From positions 1 to 64,000 of IMG/VR virus record IMGVR_UViG_3300028532_000002: a stretch of 64,000 bases of DNA; one strand, written 5' to 3'. Positions 19,021 through 35,465 of this stretch are shown here, piece after piece (the first letter of the stretch is position 1; every line of letters starts with the position of its first letter). Origin of the DNA: a virus. Its lineage: Duplodnaviria > Caudoviricetes. A model generated the notes under the pieces. That model saw nothing but the letters and a program-made list of their open reading frames with translations. It was not told the origin of the DNA and ran no database searches. A program made the position numbers and the translations under genes.

Positions 19021-20547
19021 CTACGCGGCAAGCACGCCCTTCCACGCGACCCTGACATGCTGCTCAGGCAGAAGCTTGCGCCGACCCACATTCCCCACGG
19101 CCAGCATCCGCACCTCCTTCGCAAGCAGCCGCACAGCTGCCCGCCGCTGCGCTTGCGTCCACCCGGACCACACTCGACGGGCCGCCTGCGCAGACCCCGC
19201 AGCCAGCTCCACCAGAAGCGGATCCACCATCACCGGACGCGCCGCCACCCGCGCCGCCTCCAGCTGCATCAGCAACGGCTTCTCCGCGCGCTCCCCCATC
19301 TGCCAGGAAACCCGTCCTGCCTCTACCGCCTCATACAGGCCGGCAAGCTCAGCCTCCAGCTCCTCGACCTGCTTCTCGGCCGCCGTCAGCGCCTCCCGAT
19401 TCTCCCGAGGGACCAGAGCAGCCCGCACATCCGGGTGCTCCAGCCGGTCGAACAGGAACGACTGGAACGCCTCGTCGAGAACCGCCACCCGCCGCGACCC
19501 GTGAACCGGCGCCCCCTTCCCCAGCCCCACACACCGGTACAGACGGACGTTCTCCCGCTTGATCGGCACCGCGTACACCACGGCCCCACACTCATCGCAC
19601 AGCGCGATCCCCGACAGCAGATCCATCGAGGATTGCTCCCGCGGGAGCCGTCCGTTGTTGTTCTCCTTCGGAGTGAGTGCCTCCTGGACCGCCTGCCACC
19701 GCGGCGGCGCCAGCACCGCCTGCCAGCCGCCCTGCTCGATCACCCGCCCGTTGTACCCGCGCTTGCCCTTCAGCGTGGGGGAGGACAGCAGCTGCTTCAC
19801 CGTCTTGTGCGTCCACCCCTTCGACCGCACCTTCCGGCCGTTCTTCAGCTCCCGCGTCTCCCCCAGGAGTTGCCCACGTGGCGTCCGCACCCCACGCCGG
19901 TTCAAGTCCGCAGCGATCGCCGTGGGGGTGTGCTTGTCCTCAAGCAGCCGATCCGCGATCTCCACGACGAGAGCCGCCCGCTGAGGGTGGATCACCTGCC
20001 GCACCAGCTCCCCAGTGTCCGGGTCGTAGTCCCGGGTGTACGCGTAGTGGGCGTACCCGTGCGGGCGCCCTTCCTCCGCGTGCGCATCCACGTCCCGCAG
20101 CACCCGCTTCCGAGTGGTGCCGGACTCCTGAATCACCTTGGCCATCTGCGTGTCGAGGTACCCCATGTCATCGGGGTCGTTGGTGTCCCAGAGTCGTTTG
20201 TCGAGTCCGATGTAGACATTGTTGTCCTGGCAGGCCAGCACCAGGTGCGCCCACACCATCCTGTCGCGGGTGCCTCGGGACAGCTCCCACAGCCACAGGA
20301 TGTCTGCGCCACCTGCGCGAATCAGTGCCTCGACCTTGGGCCAGTCCTCCCGAACTCCGGCCGCCCACTCGCTAGCGGAGATGTCGTTGTCGGAGAACTC
20401 GGCCACCACATCCCAGTCGTGCTCCTCTGCCCGTCTGCGGCCGATCTTCAGCTGCTGACCTACCGACCGGCCCTGATGGGAGTCCTGAGACACGCGCGCG
20501 TAGATGACGACGCGCAGCCGCCGCGGGGGCATCCTCGCACCGGACAT
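19021..20547 (-). CDS. int: Large serine recombinase (integrase)
   Basis: VIYARVSQD catalytic motif, DNDISAS, WELSRGTR, recombinase domain, zinc ribbon (LCDECG...YRC), coiled coil; start uncertain (20532 or 20547). Confidence 0.96.
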   Translation of the reverse strand: MSGARMPPRRLRVVIYARVSQDSHQGRSVGQQLKIGRRRAEEHDWDVVAEFSDNDISASEWAAGVREDWPKVEALIRAGGADILWLWELSRGTRDRMVWAHLVLACQDNNVYIGLDKRLWDTNDPDDMGYLDTQMAKVIQESGTTRKRVLRDVDAHAEEGRPHGYAHYAYTRDYDPDTGELVRQVIHPQRAALVVEIADRLLEDKHTPTAIAADLNRRGVRTPRGQLLGETRELKNGRKVRSKGWTHKTVKQLLSSPTLKGKRGYNGRVIEQGGWQAVLAPPRWQAVQEALTPKENNNGRLPREQSSMDLLSGIALCDECGAVVYAVPIKRENVRLYRCVGLGKGAPVHGSRRVAVLDEAFQSFLFDRLEHPDVRAALVPRENREALTAAEKQVEELEAELAGLYEAVEAGRVSWQMGERAEKPLLMQLEAARVAARPVMVDPLLVELAAGSAQAARRVWSGWTQAQRRAAVRLLAKEVRMLAVGNVGRRKLLPEQHVRVAWKGVLAA

Positions 20548-20906
20548 ACCGGCCGCACCCAGGCGAGCCTCGTGTAGGGCAGTTACGCTGGCCCCGTGCC
20601 CGCCCGTGGCAGCCACCCTGTGCCCGGCAGGGCCGCGCCCGTTCGCCGTCGCACATATCGGGGAAGATCTATGGCCCCTCACCAGCCCAAACGTGCGCTC
20701 TGCGGTGCATGGCGCGTACTGAGTGTGGCGGAAGCTCGTCAAGACTGAGGGCATGGGGCTATAGTAGACCCCGAATCACCACACTAAGAGTTCTTCGCCT
20801 TGCTGAAGAACCCTTAATAGCACCTTAAATATGTGCGCCCCCGGGCGGTGCGGACACACCACCTGAGGGCTGACCCGCCCCTGAGCACACCAGGAGACGA
20901 GCTGTG

Positions 20907-21098
20907 ATGACCGTACCCTCTGGCGTCCCCGTGGACGCCGCCGCCCTCGCGCTTGACGGGATTGTGACCCTCGCGCGAATGCTGACCCTCACCGAGTGGG
21001 CTGTGCTCGTCGCCTGCTTCTCCCTCCTCGCGGCGACGTTCTTCCTCGCGACCTTCACCCGTCCGTTCTTCGTGGATCAGGCCCCCTCCTCCCGATAG
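20907..21098 (+). CDS. Small membrane protein
   Basis: Hydrophobic C-terminal segment; first ORF of plus-strand transfer region. Confidence 0.45.
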   Translation: MTVPSGVPVDAAALALDGIVTLARMLTLTEWAVLVACFSLLAATFFLATFTRPFFVDQAPSSR

Positions 21099-21175
21099 GC
21101 GTGCGGCCCCGCTGGTACCCGCCCCTGCACCCGTCGGGCGCCGGCGGGACTGTACGCCCACAACAAGGAGGACCC

Positions 21176-21307
21176 ATGGCCACCGTGATCATCTACCGCG
21201 TCGACGGCACCGAAGAGACCAAGACGGTTCGGGACGAGGACACCGCCCAGTACGACGACCTGCCGTTCACCGACCCGAACGTGGTCCGCACCGAGATCCG
21301 ATTCTGA
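21176..21307 (+). CDS. Small hypothetical protein (43 aa)
   Basis: Strong RBS AAGGAGG; TGATG overlap with next gene. Confidence 0.6.
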   Translation: MATVIIYRVDGTEETKTVRDEDTAQYDDLPFTDPNVVRTEIRF

Positions 21308-21504
21308 TGCCCGGCCGAGTCGCCGCTGGCGTCGCCATCAGCGCGGGAACGCACGCGCTGATCGACAGGCGTTGGCCGGTGCGCGAGTGGATGGACCGCG
21401 CCGGCGCCAGCCGATTCCGACAGCACGGCGGCGCGGCGCATGTCGACCAGGCCATGCATCACGTCGCCCTGTACGCCGCGGCCCTCGTGATCGCTGGCCG
21501 CTGA
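21307..21504 (+). CDS. DUF3307-like protein, apparently only the C-terminal half
   Basis: SAGTHALIDRRWPVR...DQAMH motif; short for the family. Confidence 0.5.
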   Translation: MPGRVAAGVAISAGTHALIDRRWPVREWMDRAGASRFRQHGGAAHVDQAMHHVALYAAALVIAGR

Positions 21505-21556
21505 ACATCTGCCCGCCCCCTCGCCGGGGGCGGGCCCCACTCTCCTGGAGGATCCG

Positions 21557-21802
21557 GTGTCCGACACCGCGACTGCCCGCAGTGTCGGGCCCCACACCCA
21601 GCTCGGTCCCGCCTGGACCCGGCTGCCGACCAACCCCGAGCGCTCCCGCGAGGCCGCCGACCGCGCCCTGGCCGAGTGCCAGGTCGACCCGACCACGGGC
21701 CTGTGGCCGTCGGGTCGGGGCCCCTCCCCGTCGTGGCAGCGGCTGATCAAGGAAGCCGCTGCGGCGGCTACGGCGGCCGACGAGGAGGAGATCGCAGCAT
21801 GA
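21557..21802 (+). CDS. Hypothetical protein
   Basis: GTG with GGAGG RBS after GC hairpin. Confidence 0.55.
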   Translation: MSDTATARSVGPHTQLGPAWTRLPTNPERSREAADRALAECQVDPTTGLWPSGRGPSPSWQRLIKEAAAAATAADEEEIAA

Positions 21803-22245
21803 TCGAGTCCGCCAACATCGCCGCCAGCGTGGTGTTCCTGATCGTCGCGTTGGTCCTGTGGTTCGCGAAGACCTGGCCCAAGTTGCAGCTCATCCTGTTC
21901 ATCCTCGCGGGTGCGGGCATGTCCGCCGGGGTCATCGGCGGCGGGATCCAGGACGGTGTCGTCGGTCTGATCGACGGCGTGAACCGGGGCATGGTCTGGG
22001 CGTTCGGGTCGCCCGTTCCCGGGCTGCTCGCCGTCCTCGCCGTCGTCATCATCGTCCTGACCTGGATGGGCAAGGTGGGGTGGATGAAGAAGGCCGCCCG
22101 CTATGTGCCGGGCCTCACCGCGCTGGCCGCGCCGATCATCTGGCACCTGACGGGCGGGATTTTCGCCCCCCTCGCTCTGATCGTCGGCAGCTTCGGTTCC
22201 ATCATCGGCGCGATCATCTTCGGAACCATGGGCCTGACCTTCTAA
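21799..22245 (+). CDS. Multi-pass membrane protein, transfer accessory (Spd-like)
   Basis: About four hydrophobic helices; upstream of traB. Confidence 0.7.
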   Translation: MIESANIAASVVFLIVALVLWFAKTWPKLQLILFILAGAGMSAGVIGGGIQDGVVGLIDGVNRGMVWAFGSPVPGLLAVLAVVIIVLTWMGKVGWMKKAARYVPGLTALAAPIIWHLTGGIFAPLALIVGSFGSIIGAIIFGTMGLTF

Positions 22246-22262
22246 CCCCTCTCGGAGGAACC

Positions 22263-22550
22263 ATGCGTAGTACCCGTAACTCCCTGTTCGCCGTCGCCAT
22301 CGGCGGAAGCATCGGCTTCCTGGCCGTCCGCCCCGACCTTGGCGCCGTTGGTGAAGTCCTGGACGCGCAGGCCGAGATCCTCGGACTCGAGATCGCCATG
22401 GTCGCCCCGGTCCTGTTTCTCCTCGCCGTGCTGACCGTCTTCCTCTTCGTCCTGGTCGAGATCGTGACCGGGGTCGTGGACCTCGTTACCTGGCTGATCC
22501 GGCGCCACCGCAACCGCAACGCCCCCGCGGAGGTGCACGGTGACCGCTGA
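22263..22550 (+). CDS. Membrane protein, transfer accessory
   Basis: Two hydrophobic segments; overlaps traB start. Confidence 0.6.
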   Translation: MRSTRNSLFAVAIGGSIGFLAVRPDLGAVGEVLDAQAEILGLEIAMVAPVLFLLAVLTVFLFVLVEIVTGVVDLVTWLIRRHRNRNAPAEVHGDR

Positions 22551-24624
22551 GCCGACCGACGCTCAGGTCATCCCGCTGCGCCCCCGGCGTGACGCCGAGG
22601 ACCGGCCGATCCGTCCCGAGTGGACGGGCCGCGCCGGCCGTCGGCGTGCCGACCGGCCGACCGTCGGGGCGTCGGGTGGACCCGCCGCCCGACCCGACAC
22701 CCCGACCGACCACCCGACGCCCGACCCCGACCTGGAGAAGACGCAGGTCATCAGGCGTCGGCGTCTACCGACCCTGCCGTCGGGGATCGGCGCGGCCACG
22801 CTCGCCGTGCCCGCCCGGTGCGCGTGCTGCGTGGGGCGCGGCATCAAGGCCGGCGGGGACCGGTTCGGCGAGTGGGCGTCCGAGAAGGGCCACAAGGCCG
22901 AGCGGGCGAAGAAGACCCTCTGGTGGGTCGTCGGCGGGGTGGCCGTCCTGTACGTGACCGCTCCCTATGGCCTGCTGTGCCTGCTCACCGTCGGCGCCAT
23001 CGCCGCGGTGGTCGCGGGCCGGAGGGTCCCTCCGGCGGTGTCGGGTGGGGCCGACGCTCCGGGCAGGACGTTCACCGGCCCGACCGCTCCCCGAGCCGAC
23101 ACGTCGGGCAACGAACCGACCATCCCGGCCGACCACCCGACGCCTCCCCCGCTGCCCGACTACACGGTGGCCGACCACCCGACCGACAGCACCGACGGCG
23201 CGAGCCGCTACTCCGGGCCCGCCATGACGGCCCGCATCACCCCGGCGACCCTGACCGCCGAAGCGCTCCCCACCCTGCTCGCCCAGGCCGGGATCATCCG
23301 ACCGGCCGACCGACGGCTGGTCGTCGTCGAGGGAGAACCGACCCGACACCCGACCGGGGCGGTGTCGGCGTCCATGCTGCTGCCGCCCGGCGCCGACGCG
23401 GAGGAGGTCATCGCGCAGGCGCGGGTGGTCGCGTCCGCGCTGGGTGTCGGCAAGATGCTCGTCGGGCTGTCGGCCGACCCCGAGCACGCGGGTCGGCTGG
23501 AGCTGTATGTGGCCGACGCCGACCCGTTCACGGAGTCGGTTCCGTCGCCGTTGGTCGGTCGGGAGGAGGAGCTGTCGGTGTGGGAACGGCTGCCGGTCGG
23601 GTGGGACGTGCGTATGGACTCGGTTGCGCTGCGTCTGGTTGACGCGTCCATGCTCATCGCCGGAGAGCCCCGCGCCGGGAAGAGCGTGGCGCTGTCGGAG
23701 ATCATCGCCGCGTTCGCCTTGGACCCCTCTGCGGACCTGTTCCTGTTCGATGGCAAGGGCGCTGGCGACCAGGCGGTGTGGAGGCCCGTCGCGCGGGTGT
23801 TCTGCAAGCGCAACGCCGAGATGCTGCGGGTCCACCTGGAGTGGGCGGTGGAGGAGATGGAGCGGCGGTTCGACGCCCTGGAGGAGGACGGGCGCGACAC
23901 CAAGCTCACGCCGGAGATCGCCGAGGACCTGGGATTCAACGTGAGCTTGCTGGCCGTGGACGAGACCCGCTACTACATGTCGGATCCCACGCACGGCAAG
24001 GCGATCGCCCGCCTGGCGGTGGACCTCGCGGCTCGCGGCCCGGCGGCCGGGATGATCTCGGCGTGGGCCACCCAGTACATGGACAAGACCGCCATCCCCC
24101 CACAGCTCAAGGGTGTGTGCTCGCTGCGGTGGGCGTTCCGCACCCCGGACGCGGTCGCGAGCAACCTCGTGTTGGGTCCAGGGGCGGTCGGCCGTGGCTA
24201 CAACTCCTCCAGGATTCCCCGGGTGACGCACCGCGGCGTCAGCATTCTGGACGCGGACGGCGACGAGCCTCAGATGATGCGCACCCACTACCTGACCCCG
24301 GCCGAGCTGCGCGAGATCGCGGACACCGCGACCGCGCTGCGCGGCGGCCCGGTGGAGGCCAGCGAGCCCGCGGCGGCGGATGCCGACGGGGCGCAGGTGC
24401 TGGAGCGGGCGCTGGCGGCGCTCGCCGACAACGAGGACCGAGTCGAGCGCGACGACCTCGCCGAGCGGCTCGACGTGGACCCGGACGACCTCAGGGCCCG
24501 GCTCAGAACGGCCGGCGCGGGCGCCCCGCAGAGCATGCGGATCAACGGCGTTCCGAACGCGCGCGGCTGGTATCGGCGGGTCCTGGAGGAGGCGTTGGAC
24601 GCTGTCACGGACGCGCCGCCGTGA
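22540..24624 (+). CDS. traB: FtsK/SpoIIIE-family conjugative DNA translocase (TraB/TraSA-like)
   Basis: N-terminal TM segments, Walker A AGEPRAGKS, Walker B LLAVDE, LAARGPAAG...WATQ motif typical of actinomycete TraB, C-terminal wHTH-sized domain. Confidence 0.92.
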   Translation: MTAEPTDAQVIPLRPRRDAEDRPIRPEWTGRAGRRRADRPTVGASGGPAARPDTPTDHPTPDPDLEKTQVIRRRRLPTLPSGIGAATLAVPARCACCVGRGIKAGGDRFGEWASEKGHKAERAKKTLWWVVGGVAVLYVTAPYGLLCLLTVGAIAAVVAGRRVPPAVSGGADAPGRTFTGPTAPRADTSGNEPTIPADHPTPPPLPDYTVADHPTDSTDGASRYSGPAMTARITPATLTAEALPTLLAQAGIIRPADRRLVVVEGEPTRHPTGAVSASMLLPPGADAEEVIAQARVVASALGVGKMLVGLSADPEHAGRLELYVADADPFTESVPSPLVGREEELSVWERLPVGWDVRMDSVALRLVDASMLIAGEPRAGKSVALSEIIAAFALDPSADLFLFDGKGAGDQAVWRPVARVFCKRNAEMLRVHLEWAVEEMERRFDALEEDGRDTKLTPEIAEDLGFNVSLLAVDETRYYMSDPTHGKAIARLAVDLAARGPAAGMISAWATQYMDKTAIPPQLKGVCSLRWAFRTPDAVASNLVLGPGAVGRGYNSSRIPRVTHRGVSILDADGDEPQMMRTHYLTPAELREIADTATALRGGPVEASEPAAADADGAQVLERALAALADNEDRVERDDLAERLDVDPDDLRARLRTAGAGAPQSMRINGVPNARGWYRRVLEEALDAVTDAPP

Positions 24625-24711
24625 CGTCACGCCCCGCGCGCGTGACAGGCGCGTGACACCAGGGCGTGACACCGATTCACCTGCATAAACACCCGTGTGG
24701 CGGGCGTGACA
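24603..24711 (+). repeat. clt-like locus: GCGTGACA 8-mer direct repeats
   Basis: Exact copies at 24640, 24651, 24664, 24704; variants at 24619 and inverted at 24603; at and just downstream of traB stop. Confidence 0.7.
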
Positions 24712-24853
24712 CTCACCCCGACCACACCCCAGAAAACGGCCCCCAGGAGGGGGTCCGGCGCCACCGCCACACCGCCACACCACACAGAAGCGGCCTGCCC
24801 CCTACCGGCCAAGGACCAGGGGCGGGCCTAGACCCCGAGAAGGAGCCTGAACC

Positions 24854-26452
24854 ATGTTCGCAGACGCCATCACCGACCCGGCCGTCCAGGAGGCCGCGTC
24901 CGCCCCGTGGTGGGTGTGGGCGCTGACCGCCGTGGCCGTCCTGGGTGTGACGGTGTGGGTGGTGCTCCGCCTGCACCAGACCGTCCGGGACGGGTGGAGC
25001 ATCCGGGACGTTCTGCCCCGGGTGGTCGCCTCGGTGCGGTCCGCACGCCCCCGGCCGGCCGCCGCTGTGACGGTGCCCCGGCCGCGGCCCGCCGCCGCGC
25101 CCTCCGTGCCGCCGGTGCCGCCCGCGCCGGACCCCGTCGCCCCGGTTGAACCCCCCCAGGCGGCCCCGGTCGAGGCTGCGGGACCGCCCACGGCGTCCCG
25201 CCTCAAGGGCCTCATCGTCGCCGCCAGCATCCCGTCCACGTTCTCTCTGGTGTGGACCGTGTGGACGTTCATCGACATGCTGACCGCGCCGCTGCCCGCC
25301 GCGCTGGCGGCCGGTCTGGTCCTGGACGTGGCGCTCGTCGCCGCGGTCGCGATCGGATTCCTCGTCCCGGACAGGGCGACCCCCGCGAAGATCGCCGGGT
25401 GGATCATTGCGGCCCTGGCGGCGGTGATCGTGGGCTGGCACAGCATGACGCTGATGACGGTGCTCGTGCTGCTCGGCGCGATTCCGCTGGCGTCCAAGGC
25501 GCTGTGGCACCTGGCGCTCGACGCCTACCTGACGCAGCGGCGCCAGCTGGCGGCCTGGCATGCCCGACAGGAGGACGAGGCGCGGGCGGCGCGGGAGCGG
25601 GAGGCGGAGGAGGCCCGGCAGCGGAAGGAGGCCGAGCTCGCCGCGGAGGAGGAGCGCAAGCGCCGCGAGGAGGAGCTGTCCTCCGACCTGGACCACAAGC
25701 AGCAGGTGCTGATCGCCAAGAAGCAGAAGGAGGCCGAGTTCGCCCGGCGGATGGCCGCTGCGGAGCTGGAGCTGGAGATGGCCAAGTCCGAGGCCGAGCA
25801 CAAGGCGGCCCTGGCCAAGATCCGGCGTCTGGGTGAGCAGCAGCGGGCGATGGACAAGGAGTCCGCGGAGGTCGAGAAGGGACGCCAGCAGCTGATCCGG
25901 GAGATCAAGGCGGGCGAGGGTATCGACTTCGCTGTCGAGGCCGCGCGCCCGGCGCGGCGTGCACTTGGCCGACCCGACGACCCGACCGACGGTCCCGACG
26001 GGCCCGGCGGCGGGAAGCCGGTGGAGGACGTGTGGTTCCCGGAGCCGACCGACGTGCAGTGGGAGCGGCACGGGCAGCCGACGGCCCGGCCGACTGCCGA
26101 CCCGATCCCGGTGGGACAGTCGGTCGACGCCCGACCGACCGCCGACCTGCCGCCGTTCCTGTGGCCCGACGCCGCCCCGACGCCCGACCCGACCCCGGCG
26201 CCGGGTCCGTCGGTGGACGTGCCGCGCGACGACGACGCTCTCCTGGAACGCGTGCACGCCTTGGTGATGTCCGGGGAGTTGCCGCTGGTGCTGACCCGTG
26301 AGCAGCGGGCCGCCGGGCAGGTCGTCCCGGACCGACCGGCCGCCGAATCGCTGCGCAACGCGGTCGGGTGCGGGCAGGTCCGATCGCGGAGGCTGCGTGA
26401 CGCCTACCCCGACTACGCCACCGGCCGAGAGAACACGTGGGGTGCGGCGTAG
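24854..26452 (+). CDS. SpdB-like spread protein (TM bundle + long coiled coil + Pro-rich tail)
   Basis: About 4-5 TM helices, Glu/Arg/Lys coiled coil, position after traB/clt. Confidence 0.72.
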   Translation: MFADAITDPAVQEAASAPWWVWALTAVAVLGVTVWVVLRLHQTVRDGWSIRDVLPRVVASVRSARPRPAAAVTVPRPRPAAAPSVPPVPPAPDPVAPVEPPQAAPVEAAGPPTASRLKGLIVAASIPSTFSLVWTVWTFIDMLTAPLPAALAAGLVLDVALVAAVAIGFLVPDRATPAKIAGWIIAALAAVIVGWHSMTLMTVLVLLGAIPLASKALWHLALDAYLTQRRQLAAWHARQEDEARAAREREAEEARQRKEAELAAEEERKRREEELSSDLDHKQQVLIAKKQKEAEFARRMAAAELELEMAKSEAEHKAALAKIRRLGEQQRAMDKESAEVEKGRQQLIREIKAGEGIDFAVEAARPARRALGRPDDPTDGPDGPGGGKPVEDVWFPEPTDVQWERHGQPTARPTADPIPVGQSVDARPTADLPPFLWPDAAPTPDPTPAPGPSVDVPRDDDALLERVHALVMSGELPLVLTREQRAAGQVVPDRPAAESLRNAVGCGQVRSRRLRDAYPDYATGRENTWGAA

Positions 26453-26577
26453 CCCGCACCCGACCCGGGGGCGTCGGACTGTCCGACGCCCCCGCTGTGA
26501 TGGACCCGACCGACCGACAGGAGACCCGACGCCATGACCGACACCCGACCCCCGACCCCCCGACCGGGGTGGTCGCC

Positions 26578-27396
26578 ATGATGGGACGCTCCCACGCGGC
26601 GACCGGTGTACTCGCCGGAGTCGCCGTCGCGGCGGCGTTCGGCGCCCACGGTTCCGACTACTTCATCCTCGCGGCCGTCGGCGCGGGGGCCGCTCTCCTG
26701 CCCGACCTCGACGAGCCCGGCTCCACGGTCGGTCGGTCCCTCGGGGGGCTGACGCAGGGCGTGTCCCGGTGGACCCGACGCCTGTCCTCCGCCGCGTTCC
26801 GGGCGACCGCGACCCGGTGGGACACCGGCCGCATCCGCCGCGAGGAGGACGGCGAGGGGCTGGCCCCCGGCGGGCACCGCCACCTCACCCACACCCTGCC
26901 CGCCGTCGCCGTCTACGGACTGCTCGCGTGGGGGACGGCGTCGCTCGGGCCGATCGGGCTGGGGGTGACCGTCGCCGCCATGGCCGCGCTCGGCCTCGGC
27001 CTGGTCCTGCGGGAGATCGGGGTGCACTCCACCCCGCGGCGGCGCGACGACGAGTCGACCATGGCGTGGCGGGCCCGTGCGCGGATGGCCGGCCTCCAGA
27101 CCGTGGGTGTGCTTGCCGTCGGCCTGGGGATGGGCGCGGTCGTGTTGGACGGGGGCGCCCCGTGGCTGGTCGGGGTGACCGTCGCGGTGGGGGCGCTGGT
27201 GCACATCGGCGGGGACTGGCTGACCCGGGCCGGCGTCCCGCTTGCGTGGCCGGTCCCGTACCGGGGGAAGAGGTGGCGGATGTTCCGGTCGCCGGTCGCG
27301 TTCCACACCGGGAAGTCGAAAGTGGAGGACGGCATCCGGTGGGCGAGCCTCGCGGGCGCCCCCATGCTCGCGCTCCTTGCCGAGGCACCTCTGTGA
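26578..27396 (+). CDS. YdjM-like membrane-bound metal-dependent hydrolase
   Basis: MMGRSHAATG, ALLPDLD, HRHLTH, HIGGDWLT..GVPLAWP motifs. Confidence 0.88.
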   Translation: MMGRSHAATGVLAGVAVAAAFGAHGSDYFILAAVGAGAALLPDLDEPGSTVGRSLGGLTQGVSRWTRRLSSAAFRATATRWDTGRIRREEDGEGLAPGGHRHLTHTLPAVAVYGLLAWGTASLGPIGLGVTVAAMAALGLGLVLREIGVHSTPRRRDDESTMAWRARARMAGLQTVGVLAVGLGMGAVVLDGGAPWLVGVTVAVGALVHIGGDWLTRAGVPLAWPVPYRGKRWRMFRSPVAFHTGKSKVEDGIRWASLAGAPMLALLAEAPL

Positions 27397-27448: not shown

Positions 27449-27682
27449 ATGAACGACACCGCGATCCCGCTGCCCGCCGACGCGGAAGCACGATTCGCCG
27501 CGCTTACCGACGCGTGGCGGCCCCTCTTCGACGAACTCGCGTGCGGGCTCGAAGCCGCCGGGCGGGTCCTCCAGGAGTCCATGGAGACGTCCGCGCAGTA
27601 CTGGGCGGTCGCCTCGATGATGCCCACCCTGAGCATGCGGCAGACCATGGTGCACGGCTACGTGCCCTGCGGGGGGGCGTGA
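27449..27682 (+). CDS. Hypothetical protein
   Basis: RBS AGGAGG. Confidence 0.55.
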   Translation: MNDTAIPLPADAEARFAALTDAWRPLFDELACGLEAAGRVLQESMETSAQYWAVASMMPTLSMRQTMVHGYVPCGGA

Positions 27683-27915
27683 TGAGCTACCCGCTCCACG
27701 GCGGTCCCCTCGACGGGGCGACCGCCCCGGCCGGCGACATCGTCGACGGCCTGTACACCATCACCCGCTACGTGGGGGCTCCGCTCTCGGCGTTCACCGC
27801 CTCCCCCGTGCCGGACGAGGAGGCCAAGCCCGGCGGGCGCGAGACCGTGGTGTACGAGATCCAGACCTACAGGGGCCGCAAGCGGCTTGAGTACGCAGGA
27901 GGGAACACGTGGTGA
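27682..27915 (+). CDS. Hypothetical protein (GGPLDG motif)
   Basis: TGATG overlap; GGPxDG start motif shared with 32579..32800. Confidence 0.55.
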   Translation: MSYPLHGGPLDGATAPAGDIVDGLYTITRYVGAPLSAFTASPVPDEEAKPGGRETVVYEIQTYRGRKRLEYAGGNTW

Positions 27916-28391
27916 TGAACGTGCAGGCAGGCGAGGACGTGGACGTGCTTCACACGCGCGTCTGTCAGGCGCTGGACGGCCACCGGAGGCGGCTGCACCC
28001 GCGCTTCATGGACGGCGCCCTACCGGCGAAGACCGCCGGGGAGCTGTGGGAGGCCATCGACAAGGCGCGCGCCGCGGCCGACCAGGCCCACGCCGACGGT
28101 GACCTCGCCGCGCTCCAGGTGCTGGCGAAACGGTGGCCGTCCCCGGCGCCCACCCGGTCGGAGGCCCCCGAGGCATTCGACGCGCTCGCGGACCGGGCGG
28201 AGCACCTGATCATCAGGGTCGGCGAGTCCCGCGCCCGGGAGCAGCTGGAGGAGGAGCTGGGGAAGGCGGTCCAGGGCGCCCAGGAGGGGGCCGTGACTCT
28301 GGTGGCGGTCGCCGTGGAGGGCGCGATCCGGCAGGCCCGGGACGCGGTCAGGGACCGGCAGGACGTGTTCGCGAAGAGCAGCGAGGAGTAG
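27915..28391 (+). CDS. Hypothetical helical protein
   Basis: ORF 27909..28391; TGATG overlap. Confidence 0.6.
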   Translation: MNVQAGEDVDVLHTRVCQALDGHRRRLHPRFMDGALPAKTAGELWEAIDKARAAADQAHADGDLAALQVLAKRWPSPAPTRSEAPEAFDALADRAEHLIIRVGESRAREQLEEELGKAVQGAQEGAVTLVAVAVEGAIRQARDAVRDRQDVFAKSSEE

Positions 28392-28393
28392 AC

Positions 28394-28663
28394 GTGAACG
28401 AGGACGAGCAGGGGGCCGCCGCGTACCGGCGCGACGATGGATGGACGCCCCGGGGCGAGGCCGGGCAGCGGACCCTCGCGGAGGCCACGGCCGCCGCCCT
28501 CGGGCACGAGATCGTCGAGGAGGACGACATGACCCCCCAGGACCGGCCGTGCGACGACGGCCACTTCCTGCCGAAGGACGAGGCCGACAAACGGTACGGG
28601 ACCTGCACCAAGTGCGGGTGGTTCGTAGACCAGTGGGCCGACCAGGAAGAGGAAGGCCCCTGA
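28394..28663 (+). CDS. Hypothetical protein with CxxC
   Basis: GTG after GAGGAG; followed by terminator. Confidence 0.55.
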   Translation: MNEDEQGAAAYRRDDGWTPRGEAGQRTLAEATAAALGHEIVEEDDMTPQDRPCDDGHFLPKDEADKRYGTCTKCGWFVDQWADQEEEGP

Positions 28664-28696
28664 CCACAGGTCCCCCAGGATGCGGCCATAGCCGCT

Positions 28697-28724
28697 GGCC
28701 CTCACCTTCGGGTGGGGGCCTTCT
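28697..28724 (+). terminator. Rho-independent terminator
   Basis: GGCCCTCACC-TTCG-GGTGGGGGCC-TTCT. Confidence 0.75.
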
Positions 28725-28848
28725 GTGTTCGCCCACAACTGCTAGCGACCTGCAACTTTCGCTTGCTCTTGCAGTTGGCGCCCGAGCGGGACGGGCACCC
28801 TGTCGGTCCCGCACGGTAGGACAGGAACCTCACCACCCGAGGAGCCCC

Positions 28849-29190
28849 ATGCTGCCGCGCTGCGCCGACACCACCATCCTGACCGACACCGAGACCGCCA
28901 CGCTGACCCCGGACGGGCCCGTGCAGCTGGCGCTCATGGAGACCGAGGAGTCCGCGGAGGAGTTCCGGTGCGAACTCCAGGCCGCCCACCCCGACCGGCA
29001 TGCCGGGTACGTGCAGGACGGCGACGACGAGATGGTCTGGTGGGTGCGGTGGGGGCCCGGCGGCCCCCGGGAGCTGGTCACCGTGCCCAACGACGACCAC
29101 TGTCAGGGCGAGCTGCCCGAAGACGAACTGGTGTGCACCCTGCTGGAGCACTGGGGTGGGCACTGCTTCGAGCTGGAGGGAGGACAGTGA
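28849..29190 (+). CDS. Hypothetical Cys/His-containing protein
   Basis: RCELQAAHPDRH...WWVRW...C...CTLLEHWGGH; RBS GAGGAG. Confidence 0.7.
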   Translation: MLPRCADTTILTDTETATLTPDGPVQLALMETEESAEEFRCELQAAHPDRHAGYVQDGDDEMVWWVRWGPGGPRELVTVPNDDHCQGELPEDELVCTLLEHWGGHCFELEGGQ

Positions 29191-29771: not shown

Positions 29772-29948
29772 CTACTGGACGCGCACCGCCGCGAGGAGAG
29801 CGGTCCACTCGGGGGCCGGGGCCTCCAGGTGGCCCAGTTCCCGGTTCTGGGTGTCCCGCATCAGCGTCTCGAAGCCCTCGCTGACCTCGACGCAGTTCCC
29901 CGATCCGCTGCTGTAGCTGGCTTTGTGCCACGTGCGGGTTTCATTCAT
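29772..29948 (-). CDS. DUF397-family protein (Scr2-like)
   Basis: WHKASYSSGSGNCVEVS...RDTQN...EWTALL signature. Confidence 0.92.
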   Translation of the reverse strand: MNETRTWHKASYSSGSGNCVEVSEGFETLMRDTQNRELGHLEAPAPEWTALLAAVRVQ

Positions 29949-30760
29949 CGTCCACCGACCTCTCGCAACATCGTGAGTGTCGCGGCTTCCGAAAGGGCCT
30001 CTCCTTGGAGAAGACCAAACGTGGTCGCGCACTCCTGGTATCGATCCATATCGCTGATGACCGTCTCCCCGGTCATATACTCCGCCGATGCCACGGGGGG
30101 CTCGTCCGCGAAGGTGTACAGCCTGAAAGCGCCACCACTGCCGTAGTGACGCCCCGTGCTCCGGGGGATGATCTGAACCCTGACCTTACCGCTGTCCATG
30201 TCGTCGAGGACCCTCTGCACCTGATTTGTCAGCAGCTCAGGGCCGCGCGCTCCGACCTGCTGGTGGAGGACCGCTTCGCCGAGGAGGCACAGGACCAGGG
30301 GGCGGGGTTCTTCGTCCAGGAGACGCTGTCGCGTCATGCGGTTGTGCACGAGCTGATCGACGGCGGATGAGGGCATGCCGGGGAAGATGTCCTCGAAGAC
30401 CGCGCGGGCGTAGTCCTCGGTCTGGAGCAGGCCGGGGATGACGAGTGGCTGGAAGTCGCGGATCTGGGTGGCCGCGGTCTCCAGCTCGGGCAGTTCCGCG
30501 AATCGGAACGGGGTCTGCACCTGGCGGCGGACCTTGGCCCATTCGTCGGCCAGGCGACCTCCGGCCTTGAGGTGCTCGTCGAGCTGGTTGATGTACTTCT
30601 CGTCGACCTTGCGGGATCCCGTCTCCCACGAGGAGTAGTAGCTGCCCACGACGTCGAGTTTCTTGGCGACGTCGATTTGCCGCAGGTTCAGGTCCTCGCG
30701 GTGCTTCTTCATCTGCTTCCCGAAGTGCTTCCATGCCGGGTCGGTCGGGCGCTTCGACAT
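29945..30760 (-). CDS. XRE HTH + DUF5753 regulator (Scr1/WhiJ-like)
   Basis: N-terminal HTH, then FQPLVIPGLLQTEDYARA...ALSEAAT; ATGA overlap with DUF397 gene. Confidence 0.93.
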   Translation of the reverse strand: MSKRPTDPAWKHFGKQMKKHREDLNLRQIDVAKKLDVVGSYYSSWETGSRKVDEKYINQLDEHLKAGGRLADEWAKVRRQVQTPFRFAELPELETAATQIRDFQPLVIPGLLQTEDYARAVFEDIFPGMPSSAVDQLVHNRMTRQRLLDEEPRPLVLCLLGEAVLHQQVGARGPELLTNQVQRVLDDMDSGKVRVQIIPRSTGRHYGSGGAFRLYTFADEPPVASAEYMTGETVISDMDRYQECATTFGLLQGEALSEAATLTMLREVGGR

Positions 30761-31075
30761 TCACTCCTCCAAGATTTCGCTGAGATGGTCAGATTACACA
30801 GAAATTTCACCCCAAGGGAAGAGTCTTCTGTGAAATCTCCTATCGCGCGACCGTTCCGTGAAGTCCCTTGATCTGGATACTTCACTACGGGATCGTGTGG
30901 GCACGGAGAAATATCTGTGGAATGCGGAGAAGCCACCCCATTGCGGATGAATGCCTTGCCGTAGGACAAACGCTCCACACGGTGACACATCCGACCAAAA
31001 GAAAAGCCCCGACGGCCGAAGTCAGAGGCGGCCGTCGAGGCTCAGCGCCCCACCCCGAAACACCCGAGGTGAGAC

Positions 31076-31528
31076 ATGCAGAAGTGTACCGCTCCACCCC
31101 TGCCACTTCCACGCCGACTGTGCGGAACCGACACCAGGTCGGGCATCCTGATCGGCCCCGACCGCGCACACGTCCGGGTCGCCCGACAGTGGGCGTCTCA
31201 GGCCACCCGATCCCGGACCGGCCTGGCCGAGCCCGTCGCGGTCGTCGTGTCCGAGCTGGCCACGAACGCCCTGATGCACACCGCATCAGGGCTGGCCAAC
31301 GGCACCGTCCGCATCGAGCTCGAACGCACGCCCCGCCACCTGGAACTGCGTGTCACTGACGGCGGGCCCCGCCCCGGCCTCGTGGGCACCCTGCCTGCGA
31401 TCCCCGACCCGGCTCCACTTCGGGTCGGCGGCAACGGCCTGCGTCTGGTTGAGGCCATGTGTTCCTACTGGGACTGGTCGCAAGGGACCGGCGGAGCGAT
31501 CACCGTGCGAGCCGTCTTCCACTGCTAG
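31076..31528 (+). CDS. HATPase_c-like ATP-binding protein (anti-sigma-factor-like)
   Basis: VVSELATNALMH, LRVTDGG, GGNGLRLVEAM...W; divergent from the XRE gene as in canonical clusters. Confidence 0.88.
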   Translation: MQKCTAPPLPLPRRLCGTDTRSGILIGPDRAHVRVARQWASQATRSRTGLAEPVAVVVSELATNALMHTASGLANGTVRIELERTPRHLELRVTDGGPRPGLVGTLPAIPDPAPLRVGGNGLRLVEAMCSYWDWSQGTGGAITVRAVFHC

Positions 31529-34925: not shown

Positions 34926-35465
34926 CTACGTACCCCTCACTGCCTTCTCAGCGGACCACAGGTAGTAGCCCAGCACGTCGCCCTCGTGGGCCTCGACGAG
35001 GCCGGGCCCCAGCTCCGCGCGCATCTGCGGCCCGGTCCAGTGGTCCCGGTGGATCTCGAACCAGTTCCCGTTGACGTCCGCCTGGTCGTGATGGGCCAAC
35101 GGGACGCTGACGAGGACGTGGTGCGCCCAGTCCCGCATGCGCGCGAGCACCGCCCGCGCCTCCGGCTGCGTCATGTGCTCCAGCACGTCCGCGAGGATGA
35201 CCAGGTCCGGTTCGCGCAGGATGGTGTACGGGTCCAGGTGGCGGATGTCCGCGACGACGACGTGGTCGTAGGCCTCGAACAGCTGGAACTGCTGGATGTA
35301 GGGGGCCCACGCCTCCACCCCCACCCACCGGCACCCCGGGGTGGCGTCGCGGGCCAGCTGCACGTAGGTGCCCTCGCCGGGTCCCACGTCCACCACAGAG
35401 GCGGGCGCGAGAGACCTGATGATCTCCCGCGCCCACCCCTTTCCCTCACGGTCGGAGGTCGGCAC
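34926..35465 (-). CDS. Class I SAM-dependent methyltransferase
   Basis: VVDVGPGEG, GVEAW, DVLEHM motifs. Confidence 0.9.
   Translation of the reverse strand: MPTSDREGKGWAREIIRSLAPASVVDVGPGEGTYVQLARDATPGCRWVGVEAWAPYIQQFQLFEAYDHVVVADIRHLDPYTILREPDLVILADVLEHMTQPEARAVLARMRDWAHHVLVSVPLAHHDQADVNGNWFEIHRDHWTGPQMRAELGPGLVEAHEGDVLGYYLWSAEKAVRGT

What the first reader, a model, noticed from the sequence alone, without database searches (positions are those of the whole stretch)
20846..27396. Streptomyces-plasmid-type conjugation module (TraB-clt-SpdB-YdjM) inside a tailed temperate phage genome
Seen in sequence: between the serine integrase and the lysis/tail genes lies a co-oriented cluster of small membrane genes, an FtsK/SpoIIIE translocase with the actinomycete TraB-type RGPAAG..WATQ motif, 8-bp repeats at its 3' end, an SpdB-like TM/coiled-coil protein and a YdjM-like hydrolase. 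No plasmid/AICE Rep (RepSA, RepAM) and no tyrosine integrase is visible. Established: TraB alone mediates dsDNA transfer between mycelia via clt, and Spd proteins promote intramycelial spread. Plasmid-phages such as Streptomyces pZL12 are a precedent, but this combination is rare. Inference: one element could spread by virion, by integration and by hyphal conjugation, using the phage O/DnaC-like replicon for the transferable circle. Alternative: an integrase+tra satellite spanning ~19-32 kb was inserted into the phage.
Basis: partly seen in the sequence, partly recalled or inferred. Interest (0 to 1): 0.88.

Follow-up and report, generated by a model that had tools for sequence, protein, structure and literature searches.

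The report
Temperate actinomycete phage carrying TraB-clt cassette
A complete 81-kb temperate tailed phage of a filamentous actinomycete carries, next to its integrase, the one-protein DNA pump (TraB), its DNA docking repeats and membrane partner genes that Streptomyces plasmids use for mating, so the phage may also pass between hyphae as naked DNA; this is untested, and related phages and prophages carry the same kind of cassette.

Summary
The window is part of an 80.9-kb circular assembly, recovered identically in three permutations. It encodes a full siphovirus: TerL, portal, capsid, tape measure, lysis genes, RecET, DnaC and a serine integrase.

Divergent from the integrase lies a co-oriented cassette:
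- six small, mostly membrane genes;
- a 694-aa TraB (35% identity over 371 aa to pSVH1 TraB, E 1e-45; E. coli FtsK gives only 33 bits);
- a GCGTGACA x4 array directly after the traB stop;
- a membrane/coiled-coil protein with remote SpdB2 likeness;
- a YdjM hydrolase.

AlphaFold2 gives an FtsK motor plus a C-terminal winged helix. The 81-kb contig has no RepSA, RepAM, Prim-Pol, ParB or tyrosine integrase.

The combination is not rare. A sister 82.7-kb element and a 58.9-kb phage carry the same cassette. Four proviruses have TraB and integrase at opposite ends. At least 10 of 22 genomic TraB relatives sit beside phage lysis or tail genes. Most have their own 7-8-bp repeats after traB, as does the pSVH1 control.

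Best reading (0.55): a working TraB-clt system moves the phage's circular dsDNA between hyphae or compartments. Transfer itself is untested. The precedent is plasmid-phage pZL12, whose Tra protein is unrelated in sequence. This scan has noted TraB/clt cassettes in actinophages of at least 40 other genomes.

The parts
19021..20532 (-). Large serine integrase. The open frame extends to 20754; the public gene call is 503 aa.
   Evidence: Pfam Resolvase, Recombinase and Zn_ribbon_recom; phrog_95 E 1e-68. 83% aa identity to the integrase of phage record G003.
20533..20906 (.). Integrase-cassette intergenic region. It holds a promoter-like site at 20736-20765 (+) and a 12-nt-arm palindrome at 20785-20816, a candidate attP core or operator (inference).
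   Evidence: 82% nucleotide identity with G003 continues through this non-coding stretch. Palindrome and promoter scans.
20907..21098 (+). 63-aa small hydrophobic protein, the first gene of the cassette.
   Evidence: GC3 gene call and hydropathy; public gene call.
21176..21504 (+). Two small genes: 43 aa (21176-21307) and 65 aa (21307-21504).
   Evidence: The 43-aa product is 67% identical to its counterpart in sister L006. The 65-aa product hits phrog_2470 'membrane protein' and is 85-86% identical in G003.
21557..21802 (+). 81-aa small protein.
   Evidence: Public gene call; 43% identity to L006.
21799..22245 (+). 148-aa protein with four predicted membrane helices, the best-conserved cassette partner of TraB. 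Spd-type role is inferred.
   Evidence: Hydropathy. 80% identity to L006, 55% to G003, 63% to the Nocardiopsis loci.
22263..22550 (+). 95-aa membrane protein whose stop overlaps the traB start.
   Evidence: 52% identity to L006. A weak sub-threshold TraL match was not relied on.
22540..24624 (+). TraB-type dsDNA translocase, 694 aa. Layout: disordered N-terminus, two hydrophobic helices (about 119-160), FtsK alpha/beta motor (about 240-600), C-terminal winged helix (611-690).
   Evidence: 35% identity over 371 aa, E 1e-45, to pSVH1 TraB, against 32.7 bits to E. coli FtsK and no PDB sequence hit. AF2 pLDDT 85-97 in the motor and 83-93 in the wHTH. Foldseek top hits are FtsK motors. Catalytic residues are invariant across 21 homologues.
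24603..24790 (+). clt-like locus. It holds GCGTGACA x4 (24640, 24651, 24664, 24704), the CGTGACGTCACG palindrome over the stop codon, an inverted copy at 24604, the variant TTCACCTGC at 24676-24684 of a conserved CTGACCTGC box, and CGCCACAC x3 at 24756-24790.
   Evidence: The pSVH1 control shows GACCCGGA x5-6 in the same position.
24854..26452 (+). 532-aa Spd-like protein. Layout: membrane helices (18-44, 139-222), charged coiled-coil region (about 225-345), Pro-rich linker, conserved C-terminal domain (about 445-525; a DNA-binding role is inferred from HTH domains in relatives).
   Evidence: Hydropathy. 51 family representatives. hhalign to pSVH1 SpdB2: prob 72%, E 3e-5, 57 columns. The L006 orthologue hits DUF2637 at 31 bits. 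Relatives carry HTH domains.
26578..27396 (+). YdjM-family membrane-bound metal-dependent hydrolase, 272 aa. The open frame starts at 26437.
   Evidence: PF04307 E 7e-23; phrog_20744 E 7e-51. 53-56% identity in L006, G003 and Nocardiopsis cassettes. No hit in plasmids or phages by tblastn.
27449..29190 (+). Five further co-oriented small ORFs of 77, 77, 160, 89 and 113 aa. Function is unknown, and they are not conserved in the sister cassette.
   Evidence: Public gene calls; no Pfam, PHROG or PADLOC hits; absent from L006.
29772..31528 (.). WhiJ/AbaA-type regulatory triad bordering the cassette: DUF397 (29772-29948, -), HTH_31+DUF5753 (29945-30760, -) and HATPase_c_2 (31076-31528, +).

Best explanation
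The element is a temperate siphovirus of a mycelial actinomycete. Its genome is an 80.9-kb circle in the assembled form and carries a large serine integrase. A transfer cassette of the Streptomyces plasmid/AICE type is a resident part of that genome.

Proposed mechanism:
1. TraB is held at the membrane by its N-terminal hydrophobic helices and forms an FtsK-like ring.
2. Its C-terminal winged helix docks on the GCGTGACA repeats just after its own gene. ATP hydrolysis then pumps the double-stranded circular phage genome into a neighbouring hypha or compartment.
3. The small membrane proteins, the 532-aa Spd-like protein and perhaps the YdjM hydrolase help passage through cross-walls.
4. In the recipient the DNA integrates through the serine integrase or replicates from the phage replicon.

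Shown here: gene content, TraB family affinity and fold, the repeat array, the circular assembly, and conservation and recurrence of the cassette in phages. Inferred: ring formation, binding to the repeats, the roles of the partner proteins, and any transfer at all.
For: 1. Phage identity and one molecule. Full head, tail, lysis and recombination gene sets are present. The contig has a 132-bp terminal overlap, and two independent 81,060-bp assemblies are 100% identical over the 22.1-kb and 14.0-kb stretches retrieved but permuted.

2. TraB membership.
- 161 bits, E 1e-45, to the experimentally studied pSVH1 TraB, including the region upstream of the ATPase core.
- Only 32.7 bits to E. coli FtsK, and no PDB sequence hit.
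- AF2 gives a motor plus a C-terminal wHTH, and Foldseek matches FtsK motors.
- Walker A/B, Q512 and R534 are invariant.

3. clt. Four of the window's 6 GCGTGACA copies lie within 72 bp right after the stop. The pSVH1 control shows its known GACCCGGA array in the same place. Relatives have their own arrays: CCTAGCA x6, GGTAGAC x5, CTATCCCC x4, CCGCTACC x9. The window and sister L006 share the CGTGAC core and the 'RING' wing residues. L012 has CCTAGCA and L013 scattered CTAGCA-like copies, and both share 'WRDG'.

4. Plasmid ancestry. Sister L006 has the pSVH1-type traR (51%, E 6e-78) and GNAT (42%) pair, divergent from the cassette exactly as in pSVH1.

5. Conservation in phages.
- The cassette is shared with L006 (TraB 64%, 4-TM protein 80%) and G003 (integrase 83%, YdjM 56%).
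- Proviruses G001, G002, G004 and G011 have TraB and integrase at opposite ends, which is the integrated form of the integrase|cassette layout seen here.
- At least 10 of 22 genomic relatives have endolysin or tape-measure homologues downstream.

6. No known defence system matches the cassette.
Against: - No experiment shows transfer, and no data show expression.
- The window lacks the TraR/GntR repressor that controls traB in plasmids and in sister L006, so regulation is unknown.
- The Spd assignment is weak: hhalign prob 72% over 57 columns, and no Pfam hit for the window's own protein.
- YdjM has no precedent in plasmid transfer regions.
- An 81-kb circle is large for the small-plasmid TraB type.
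- The circular assembly could reflect terminally redundant virion DNA or replicating DNA rather than a stable episome.
- TraB could serve another DNA-handling role in the phage cycle.
Confidence: 0.55

Rival explanations
1. The cassette is kept by the phage for a job other than cell-to-cell transfer. One option is moving or anchoring phage or prophage DNA during septation and sporulation, so that spores inherit it. Another is excluding incoming plasmids, AICEs or phages that use the same route. On this reading the repeats serve as a loading site for that purpose.
For: - FtsK/SpoIIIE-like genes are reported in Streptomyces phages and discussed in terms of replication or host development (PMC11536984, PMC13587820).
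- The cassette sits in the integrase-proximal region, which in my own knowledge often holds lysogeny-expressed accessory genes.
- No TraR repressor is present in the window.
Against: - The protein is specifically of the conjugative TraB lineage, with a plasmid-type repeat array and Spd-like partners.
- The sister cassette retains the plasmid traR-GNAT pair.
- No defence family matches.
- The FtsK-like genes of isolated Streptomyces phages are not detectably related: tblastn over 50,697 phage records found one weak Bacillus phage hit.
Confidence: 0.22
2. The 19-33 kb stretch (integrase, transfer cassette, regulators) is a separate integrative element or satellite that inserted into the phage and can excise on its own.
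For: - The integrase and its upstream DNA (82% nt) and a 1.1-kb block at 32.2-33.3 kb (75-92% aa) are far better conserved with G003 than the phage core genes, which are 28-45% identical. That pattern suggests exchange as a unit.
- Serine integrases leave no long direct repeats, so the lack of repeats is weak evidence against this reading.
- 15-kb elements carrying TraB and a D5 primase-helicase exist (L013, L060).
Against: - This is the only integrase in the 81-kb genome, so the phage would have none of its own.
- There is no Rep gene in the stretch or elsewhere and no att-like repeats.
- Sister L006 has the cassette with no adjacent integrase.
- In proviruses G001, G002, G004 and G011 the only integrase found lies at the far end of the prophage.
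- Similarity to G003 continues, at lower level, into the early genes beyond the integrase.
Confidence: 0.1
3. The cassette is a decaying remnant of a captured plasmid or AICE transfer region, with no present function.
For: - The window has no TraR repressor.
- The N-terminal membrane part of the Spd-like protein differs between the window and L006. Only the C-terminal 160 aa align.
Against: - All cassette genes are intact.
- TraB catalytic residues are invariant.
- TraB is 64% and the 4-TM protein 80% identical to the sister, over full length and without stops.
- The repeat array is exact.
- The same layout persists in several diverged phage lineages.
Confidence: 0.08
4. Assembly chimera joining a phage and a conjugative element.
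For: The data are metagenomic short-read assemblies.
Against: - Three assemblies of the same length have different break points and are 100% identical over the 14-22 kb of each that was retrieved.
- Fragments come from two further runs.
- The same integrase|cassette junction occurs in G003, and the cassette sits among phage genes in L006 and L012.
Confidence: 0.02

Closest known systems
TraB-clt-Spd transfer region of Streptomyces venezuelae plasmid pSVH1 (NC_007431; also pSG5, pFP11-type plasmids and AICEs)
   Same: - TraB is 35% identical over 371 aa, E 1e-45.
- Both have three parts: membrane anchor, FtsK motor and C-terminal winged helix.
- An array of 8-bp direct repeats lies directly after the traB stop.
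- Small membrane genes lie upstream, in the same orientation.
- A membrane/charged protein with remote SpdB2 likeness is adjacent.
- The sister cassette keeps the traR-GNAT pair at 51% and 42% identity.
   Different: - The carrier is an 81-kb tailed phage with a serine integrase and phage replication genes, not a 12-kb rolling-circle plasmid.
- The repeat word differs (GCGTGACA, not GACCCGGA).
- The Spd-like gene lies after traB, not before it.
- The window has no TraR.
- A YdjM hydrolase is part of the conserved cassette.
Streptomyces plasmid-phage pZL12 / phage ZL12 (GQ919031; Zhong et al. 2010, J Bacteriol 192:3747, as cited in PMC3583192 and PMC4487206)
   Same: - It is a tailed actinomycete phage genome of similar size (90 kb, circular) that also carries an FtsK/SpoIIIE-type transfer gene with adjacent genes and a GntR regulator.
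[quoted passage not shown]
   Different: - pZL12 is a plasmid-prophage with annotated ParA and ParB genes; the window has neither ParB nor a plasmid Rep.
- Its integrase/recombinase gene is a different one from the window's large serine integrase.
- Its Tra protein (pZL12.71c) shows no significant similarity to the window's TraB: BLASTP E 0.5 and no tblastn hit.
- I saw no repeat array directly after that gene.
- The original paper was not available to read.
[quoted passage not shown]
   Same: They combine an integrase with a single FtsK-type Tra protein, clt and Spd genes, and they transfer as a double-stranded circle after excision (PMC2440964, PMC3218068).
   Different: AICEs are 9-24 kb and are defined by Int + Rep (RepSA, RepAM or Prim-Pol) + Tra. 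This element has none of those Rep genes and has a complete virion gene set instead.
FtsK/SpoIIIE-like genes of isolated Streptomyces phages (e.g. Geonosis, Jaresh, AndoPrime)
   Same: Both are FtsK-family ATPases encoded by actinophages. The window's protein scores E 3e-31 against phrog_1358.
   Different: - There is no detectable tblastn similarity to any of 50,697 phage records apart from one weak Bacillus phage hit.
- Those genes are discussed as replication or development related. The papers read make no mention of TraB or conjugation.

Membership tests
TraB (conjugative dsDNA translocase of Streptomyces plasmids/AICEs) | FtsK/SpoIIIE-type motor with intact Walker A/B and ATQ motifs | tested here: met
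   PF01580 29.8 bits. GEPRAGKS, VDE and WATQ are present. G375, G380, K381, D474, E475 and Q512 are invariant in 21 homologues. AF2 plus Foldseek: FtsK motor, E 1e-16, about 410-430 aligned columns.
TraB (conjugative dsDNA translocase of Streptomyces plasmids/AICEs) | Closer in sequence to characterised TraB than to chromosomal FtsK, SpoIIIE or EccC | tested here: met
   pSVH1 TraB: 161 bits, E 1e-45 over 371 aa, including the pre-motor region. E. coli FtsK: 32.7 bits. No PDB chain at E<=0.01. 66 of 75 plasmid hits are Streptomyces plasmids. In the quick tree E. coli FtsK sits on a very long branch.
TraB (conjugative dsDNA translocase of Streptomyces plasmids/AICEs) | N-terminal membrane association | tested here: met
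   A hydrophobic stretch at 129-163 by hydropathy, modelled as two helices, 119-139 and 144-160. This is a prediction only.
TraB (conjugative dsDNA translocase of Streptomyces plasmids/AICEs) | C-terminal winged helix-turn-helix that reads the repeats | tested here: met
   AF2 models residues 611-690 as three helices plus a beta-hairpin wing, pLDDT 83-93. The domain is present, but binding was not tested.
TraB (conjugative dsDNA translocase of Streptomyces plasmids/AICEs) | Adjacent clt made of repeated 8-bp recognition words | tested here: met
   GCGTGACA x4 within 72 bp after the stop, with further CGTGAC cores. The pSVH1 control gives the same pattern.
TraB (conjugative dsDNA translocase of Streptomyces plasmids/AICEs) | Mediates transfer of clt-bearing DNA between mycelia | not testable with these tools
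   Needs mating assays.
SpdB2-type spread protein | Integral membrane protein encoded next to traB, with sequence relatedness to SpdB2 | tested here: inconclusive
   Membrane helices and the position next to traB are present. BLASTP to pSVH1 SpdB2: E 0.036. Family profile against SpdB2: hhalign prob 72%, E 3e-5, 57 columns. No Pfam hit for the window's protein, while the L006 orthologue hits DUF2637. pSVH1 SpdB2 itself hits no Pfam family.
AICE | Int + Rep (RepSA, RepAM or Prim-Pol) + Tra in one 9-24 kb element | tested here: not met
   Int and Tra are present. RepSA, DUF3631 and Prim-Pol are absent from the whole contig (the first two searches had no positive control). The element is 81 kb with virion genes.
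Phage-plasmid (pZL12-type plasmid-prophage) | Plasmid replication and partition genes alongside virion genes | tested here: not met
   No ParB and no plasmid Rep families. A large serine integrase points to integration. ParA was not searched separately.
Tailed temperate phage (Caudoviricetes) | TerL, portal, major capsid, tape measure and tail, lysis genes, and an integrase | tested here: met
   PHROG hits. The portal is 45% identical to that of Thermobifida phage P1312. CheckV completeness is 92%.

The most novel reading that the evidence does not exclude
TraB-clt cassettes are a standard, selected organ of a broad set of temperate phages of mycelial actinomycetes (Streptomyces, Streptosporangiaceae, Nocardiopsis). 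They sit beside attP, so that in the prophage they lie at the end opposite the integrase. They would give these phages a capsid-free, receptor-independent route. After excision or infection, the double-stranded genome is pumped across hyphal contacts and cross-walls. Lysogeny would then spread through a multinucleate mycelium and into neighbours that virions cannot infect.
Probability: 0.35. Interest if true: 0.85.

Novelty: new variant of a known kind. Interest (0 to 1): 0.62.

Why it matters
Phages are assumed to move between cells only as particles. Streptomyces-type conjugation is treated as the property of plasmids and AICEs.

An integrating tailed phage with a working TraB-clt system would blur that line in three ways:
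- It could bypass receptor-based resistance.
- It could spread lysogeny through compartmented, multinucleate hyphae.
- TraB acting on an integrated clt might mobilise flanking chromosome, as AICEs do (PMC11571958).

It also bears on annotation. Surveys of AICEs count FtsK-domain genes, and prophage surveys ignore them; the actinobacterial prophage survey PMC10023795 does not mention FtsK, TraB or conjugation. A whole class of hybrid elements may therefore be filed wrongly.

The idea is directly testable by ordinary matings in laboratory Streptomyces strains.

Tried and rejected
- **Phage and plasmid similarity searches.** Megablast of 19-28.5 kb against 50,697 phage records found nothing. tblastn of TraB against phages gave one weak Bacillus phage hit. 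So no cultured relative exists, and the usual phage FtsK-like genes are a different lineage. tblastn of the 532-aa protein and of YdjM against plasmids, and of YdjM against phages, found nothing.
- **Curated families.** NCBIfam has no model that fits; plasmid_TraB gives only 41 bits even for pSVH1 TraB. PDB sequence search found nothing.
- **Defence reading.** PADLOC gave only weak ATPase-core hits to SspH and mad8. Rejected.
- **Nested element.** No convincing direct repeats around 17-34 kb. This is uninformative for a serine integrase.
- **tRNA.** The ARAGORN tRNA-Gln at 21935-22024 lies inside the conserved 148-aa ORF and is not supported by Rfam. Rejected as false.
- **pZL12.** Its Tra is not homologous at BLASTP level. 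The original paper is not held.
- **PhiNon1.** I looked for TraB near the portal hit in the Nonomuraea gerenzanensis chromosome (PhiNon1 was the target; its position in that record was not confirmed). None was found within 45-95 kb.
- **L006 record.** The genome search on it failed because the record is not held. Only 20.6 kb of the sister element was seen, so its head genes are unverified.
- **G005.** The TraB in this 75-kb provirus record is nearly identical to pSVH1 TraB, with a tyrosine integrase 6 kb away. It is probably an AICE lying next to a prophage, so I did not count it as phage-borne.
- **Tree.** The careful tree did not finish. Only the quick tree is reported, and the joining of E. 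coli FtsK with the Nocardiopsis/G003 clade there is likely long-branch attraction.

Full report
**Where the window lies.** The window is bases 1-64000 of an 81,051-bp IMG/VR virus record, with CheckV completeness of 92%.
- The record's last 132 bases repeat its first 132.
- The same sequence was assembled as 81,060-bp contigs in two ENA metagenomes. Over the 22.1-kb and 14.0-kb stretches of them that I retrieved they are 100% identical to it. One contig begins at window position 20669; the other, by its coordinates, should end near 36804.
- Fragments occur in two further sequencing runs.

Three permutations of one length mean a closed circle of about 80.9 kb, or a circularly permuted population. 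This is not an integrated prophage with host flanks.

**Gene map.** GC content is about 71%, so I called genes by third-position GC and checked them against the public gene calls. PHROG and Pfam scans give the following layout. All genes are on the minus strand unless stated.
- Early genes at 1-17.5 kb: SSB, DNA methyltransferase, DnaC-like loader, RusA, RecT, RecE.
- Large serine integrase at 19021-20532.
- The plus-strand cassette at 20.9-29.2 kb.
- A WhiJ-type regulator triad at 29.8-31.5 kb.
- Glycosyltransferase, holin and endolysin at 33.3-37.0 kb.
- A plus-strand block of small genes at 40.6-47.8 kb.
- Tail genes at 50.5-63 kb, including a 1152-aa tape measure.
- Beyond the window: capsid, scaffold, portal and TerL at 63.8-71.4 kb.

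The portal is 45% identical to that of Thermobifida phage P1312 and has 824 actinophage matches. This is a complete temperate siphovirus with no close cultured relative.

**The cassette.**
- Six small genes come first (63, 43, 65, 81, 148 and 95 aa), several of them hydrophobic. The 148-aa product has four predicted membrane helices.
- traB (22540-24624) overlaps the stop of the 95-aa gene.
- After a 229-bp gap come a 532-aa protein and then a YdjM-family hydrolase (PF04307, E 7e-23).
- The 532-aa protein has membrane helices, a long charged coiled-coil stretch, a proline-rich linker and a conserved C-terminal domain.
- Five further small plus-strand ORFs follow. They are not conserved in relatives.

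**Is the translocase a TraB?**
- Against the plasmid collection it hits 75 records, 66 of them Streptomyces plasmids. These include pSVH1, pSG5 and pFP11, at 34-37% identity over the central half.
- Pairwise with pSVH1 TraB it gives 161 bits (E 1e-45) over 371 residues. The alignment starts about 130 residues before the Walker A motif, so it covers more than the shared ATPase core.
- E. coli FtsK gives 32.7 bits over the core only. No PDB chain is found by sequence at E 0.01. No NCBIfam model fits.
- An AlphaFold2 model built on 21 homologues is confident for residues 240-600 and for 611-690. The first part superposes on FtsK motor domains (Foldseek E 1e-16, 410-430 columns), ahead of TcpA and EccC. 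The second part is three helices plus a beta-hairpin, that is, a winged helix.
- Two hydrophobic helices lie at about 119-160.

These are the three parts described for pSVH1 TraB; that description is from my own knowledge of Vogelmann et al. 2011, which I did not read here.

**The repeats.**
- GCGTGACA occurs six times in the window on both strands. Four copies lie at 24640, 24651, 24664 and 24704, starting 16 bp after the traB stop.
- The six-base core CGTGAC is under-represented in the window (44 copies found, 82 expected). Even so, seven copies fall within 24604-24710, including a CGTGACGTCACG palindrome over the stop codon.
- As a control I looked at pSVH1. Its published recognition word GACCCGGA is repeated five to six times in the 140 bp after its traB stop.
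- The same test on 22 further TraB-encoding loci showed locus-specific 7-8-bp words in the same place:

| Locus | Repeated word | Copies |
|---|---|---|
| L012 | CCTAGCA | 6 |
| L018 | GGTAGAC | 5 |
| L025 | ACCCGGA | 5 |
| L027, L030 | CTATCCCC | 4 |
| L031 | CCGCTACC | 9 |

- In 8 of the 24 loci tested (the window and pSVH1 included), 5% or fewer of random 250-bp windows from the same locus reach the count.
- The window and its sister share the CGTGAC core, and their wing reads R-I-N-G. L012 has CCTAGCA and L013 scattered CTAGCA-like copies, and both read W-R-D-G at the same place. This fits co-variation of protein and site but is not a test of it.

**The partner genes.** The 532-aa protein has no Pfam hit and no plasmid tblastn hit.
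- A whole-library search found 51 family representatives. They are mostly 350-470 aa and align over the membrane and coiled-coil part. Many carry C-terminal HTH domains.
- The family profile aligns to pSVH1 SpdB2 with hhalign probability 72% (E 3e-5) over 57 columns. Those columns hold the family's near-invariant W, H, K and W residues.
- The orthologue in the sister element passes the DUF2637 threshold.

I therefore call it Spd-like, not SpdB2. YdjM is conserved in the three closest cassettes and in two Nocardiopsis genomes. It has no tblastn match in plasmids or phages. It is thus a feature of this phage cassette rather than of the plasmid system, and its role is unknown. A wall- or membrane-acting role would be a guess.

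**Relatives.** The closest TraB (64% over full length) lies on an 82,694-bp contig, of which I hold 20.6 kb as L006.
- It has the same cassette: the 43-aa gene at 67%, the 4-TM gene at 80%, the 95-aa gene at 52%, then TraB, a 544-aa Spd-like protein, and YdjM at 54%.
- Upstream and divergent are a GntR regulator and a GNAT gene that are 51% (E 6e-78) and 42% identical to the pair in the same position in pSVH1. This is strong evidence that the cassette descends from a plasmid or AICE transfer region.
- Its neighbours include a phage-type regulator (phrog_5823, E 6e-102), a replication initiator and a tail fibre gene.

A 58.9-kb IMG/VR record (G003) has an integrase 83% identical and the same integrase|cassette layout.
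- Its 65-aa gene is 85% identical, its 4-TM gene 55% and its YdjM 56%.
- Its TraB motor is only 30% identical, and its tape measure, SSB and replication genes are 28-45% identical. The cassette region is therefore mosaic.

**How common is it?** A profile scan of IMG/VR found 29 loci with TraB relatives.
- In proviruses G001, G002, G004 and G011 (34-56 kb, CheckV 81-89%), TraB lies 1-2 kb from one end of the record. A tyrosine integrase lies at the other end. TerL is present in G002 and G004, and endolysin and tape-measure homologues lie just inside TraB in G002.
- For G001 the chromosomal context is visible in L012: host DNA ligase, then four small genes, TraB, regulators, an endolysin and a large phage protein (phrog_5313, E 1e-246). 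No integrase or Rep lies in between.
- TraB and integrase at opposite ends of a prophage is what recombination at an attP lying between them would produce. The window shows the circular counterpart: integrase and cassette are divergent neighbours. The DNA between them is conserved with G003 at 82% and holds a 12-nt-arm palindrome.
- In one genome per species, 22 loci were found in Streptosporangiaceae, Streptomyces and Nocardiopsis. At least 10 have an endolysin or tape-measure homologue a few kb downstream on the opposite strand. That is a lower bound, because only tblastn with a few queries was used.
- A quick maximum-likelihood tree places the window and L006 as sister to this largely prophage-borne clade. 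pSVH1 groups elsewhere, with G005 and L026.
- G005's TraB is almost identical to pSVH1's and has an integrase 6 kb away. It is probably an AICE beside a prophage, so I did not count it.

**What is absent.** Six-frame searches of the whole contig found none of the following:
- a tyrosine integrase;
- RepSA, RepAM/DUF3631 or Prim-Pol;
- ParB.

The RepSA and RepAM searches rang in no control genome, so they are weaker. No known defence family fits the cassette. The window has no homologue of the TraR repressor found in L006, so control of traB here is open. A promoter-like site at 20736-20765 faces the cassette, with the palindrome just downstream of it.

**Comparison with what is known.** The published precedent is plasmid-phage pZL12. 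[quoted passage not shown] I could not read the original paper.
- Its record shows ParA, ParB, a GntR regulator and an FtsK-like gene, pZL12.71c.
- That protein is not similar to the window's TraB: BLASTP E 0.5 and no tblastn hit.
- pZL12 is maintained as a plasmid. The present element is an integrating phage with a pSVH1-lineage TraB and a plasmid-style clt.

The papers I could search treat FtsK-like phage genes as replication or development related. The actinobacterial prophage survey does not mention TraB or conjugation. Within this scan, earlier notes report TraB/clt cassettes in actinophages of at least 40 other genomes. My census agrees with the claim that many prophages carry them.

**Verdict.**
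- The reading 'phage with a plasmid-type transfer cassette' is supported by family membership, fold, the repeat array, plasmid-type regulators in the sister, and conservation across phage lineages.
- That the cassette actually transfers phage DNA is inference; I put it at 0.55.
- It is a new variant of a known kind: pZL12 showed that a Streptomyces phage genome can conjugate. This is a different TraB lineage in integrating phages, and the pattern is recurrent rather than rare.

Noticed in passing
window 24676-24684; L006 12075; L012 11892; L003 (pSVH1) 8288; L019, L022, L023, L025, L028, L030, L031: An invariant 9-mer, CTGACCTGC (the window has TTCACCTGC), lies 24-146 bp after the traB stop in 10 of 24 TraB loci, including plasmid pSVH1, and is usually followed within about 10 nt by the locus-specific repeat word. 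Ten of its 30 copies in 460 kb fall in this 0.5% of the sequence space. It is not the sps palindrome of SpdA (PMC4170104). Its function is unknown; it may be a fixed part of clt or a promoter element.
   Followed up: partly
L006 5418-6739: The sister element keeps a GntR (51%) and GNAT (42%) pair homologous to the pair upstream of the spd-traB operon of pSVH1, in the same divergent position. The window has the serine integrase there instead.
   Followed up: yes
L013 and L060: Elements of about 15 kb (19 contigs in one sample series) combine a TraB of this clade with a D5_N/DUF5906 primase-helicase, an HTH_17 excisionase-like gene and a weak small-terminase-like gene. They could be AICE-like elements or phage satellites with their own TraB.
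   Followed up: no
window 29772-31528: A WhiJ/AbaA-type triad (DUF397, HTH_31+DUF5753, anti-sigma-like HATPase_c_2), typical of Streptomyces-like hosts, sits inside the phage. A similar HTH_31/DUF5753 gene flanks TraB in L006 and L012, and tblastn finds homologues near TraB in several other loci.
   Followed up: no
window 21935-22024: ARAGORN calls a 90-nt tRNA-Gln inside the conserved 148-aa membrane-protein ORF. Rfam finds no tRNA at gathering score, so it is likely a false positive.
   Followed up: yes
window 33324-35465 and contig 65786-67012: Two glycosyltransferase genes: a 533-aa fusion directly after the holin, separated from it by a 179-aa ORF, and a 408-aa one between portal and scaffold. 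Both hit phrog_1721.
   Followed up: no
contig 74073-74708 (outside the window): A 211-aa protein with a LexA DNA-binding domain, a candidate SOS-linked phage repressor.
   Followed up: no
G005 = IMGVR_UViG_2918501144_000002, 1-13 kb: This 75-kb 'provirus' record starts with a TraB almost identical to pSVH1 TraB, with the same ACCCGGA repeats and a tyrosine integrase 6 kb away. It is probably an AICE fused to a prophage call, so provirus boundaries can merge two elements.
   Followed up: partly
window 24756-24790: A second repeat, CGCCACAC x3, follows the GCGTGACA array. It resembles the CCGCACA(C/G)(C/G) clt repeats reported for pJV1 (PMC3583192).
   Followed up: no
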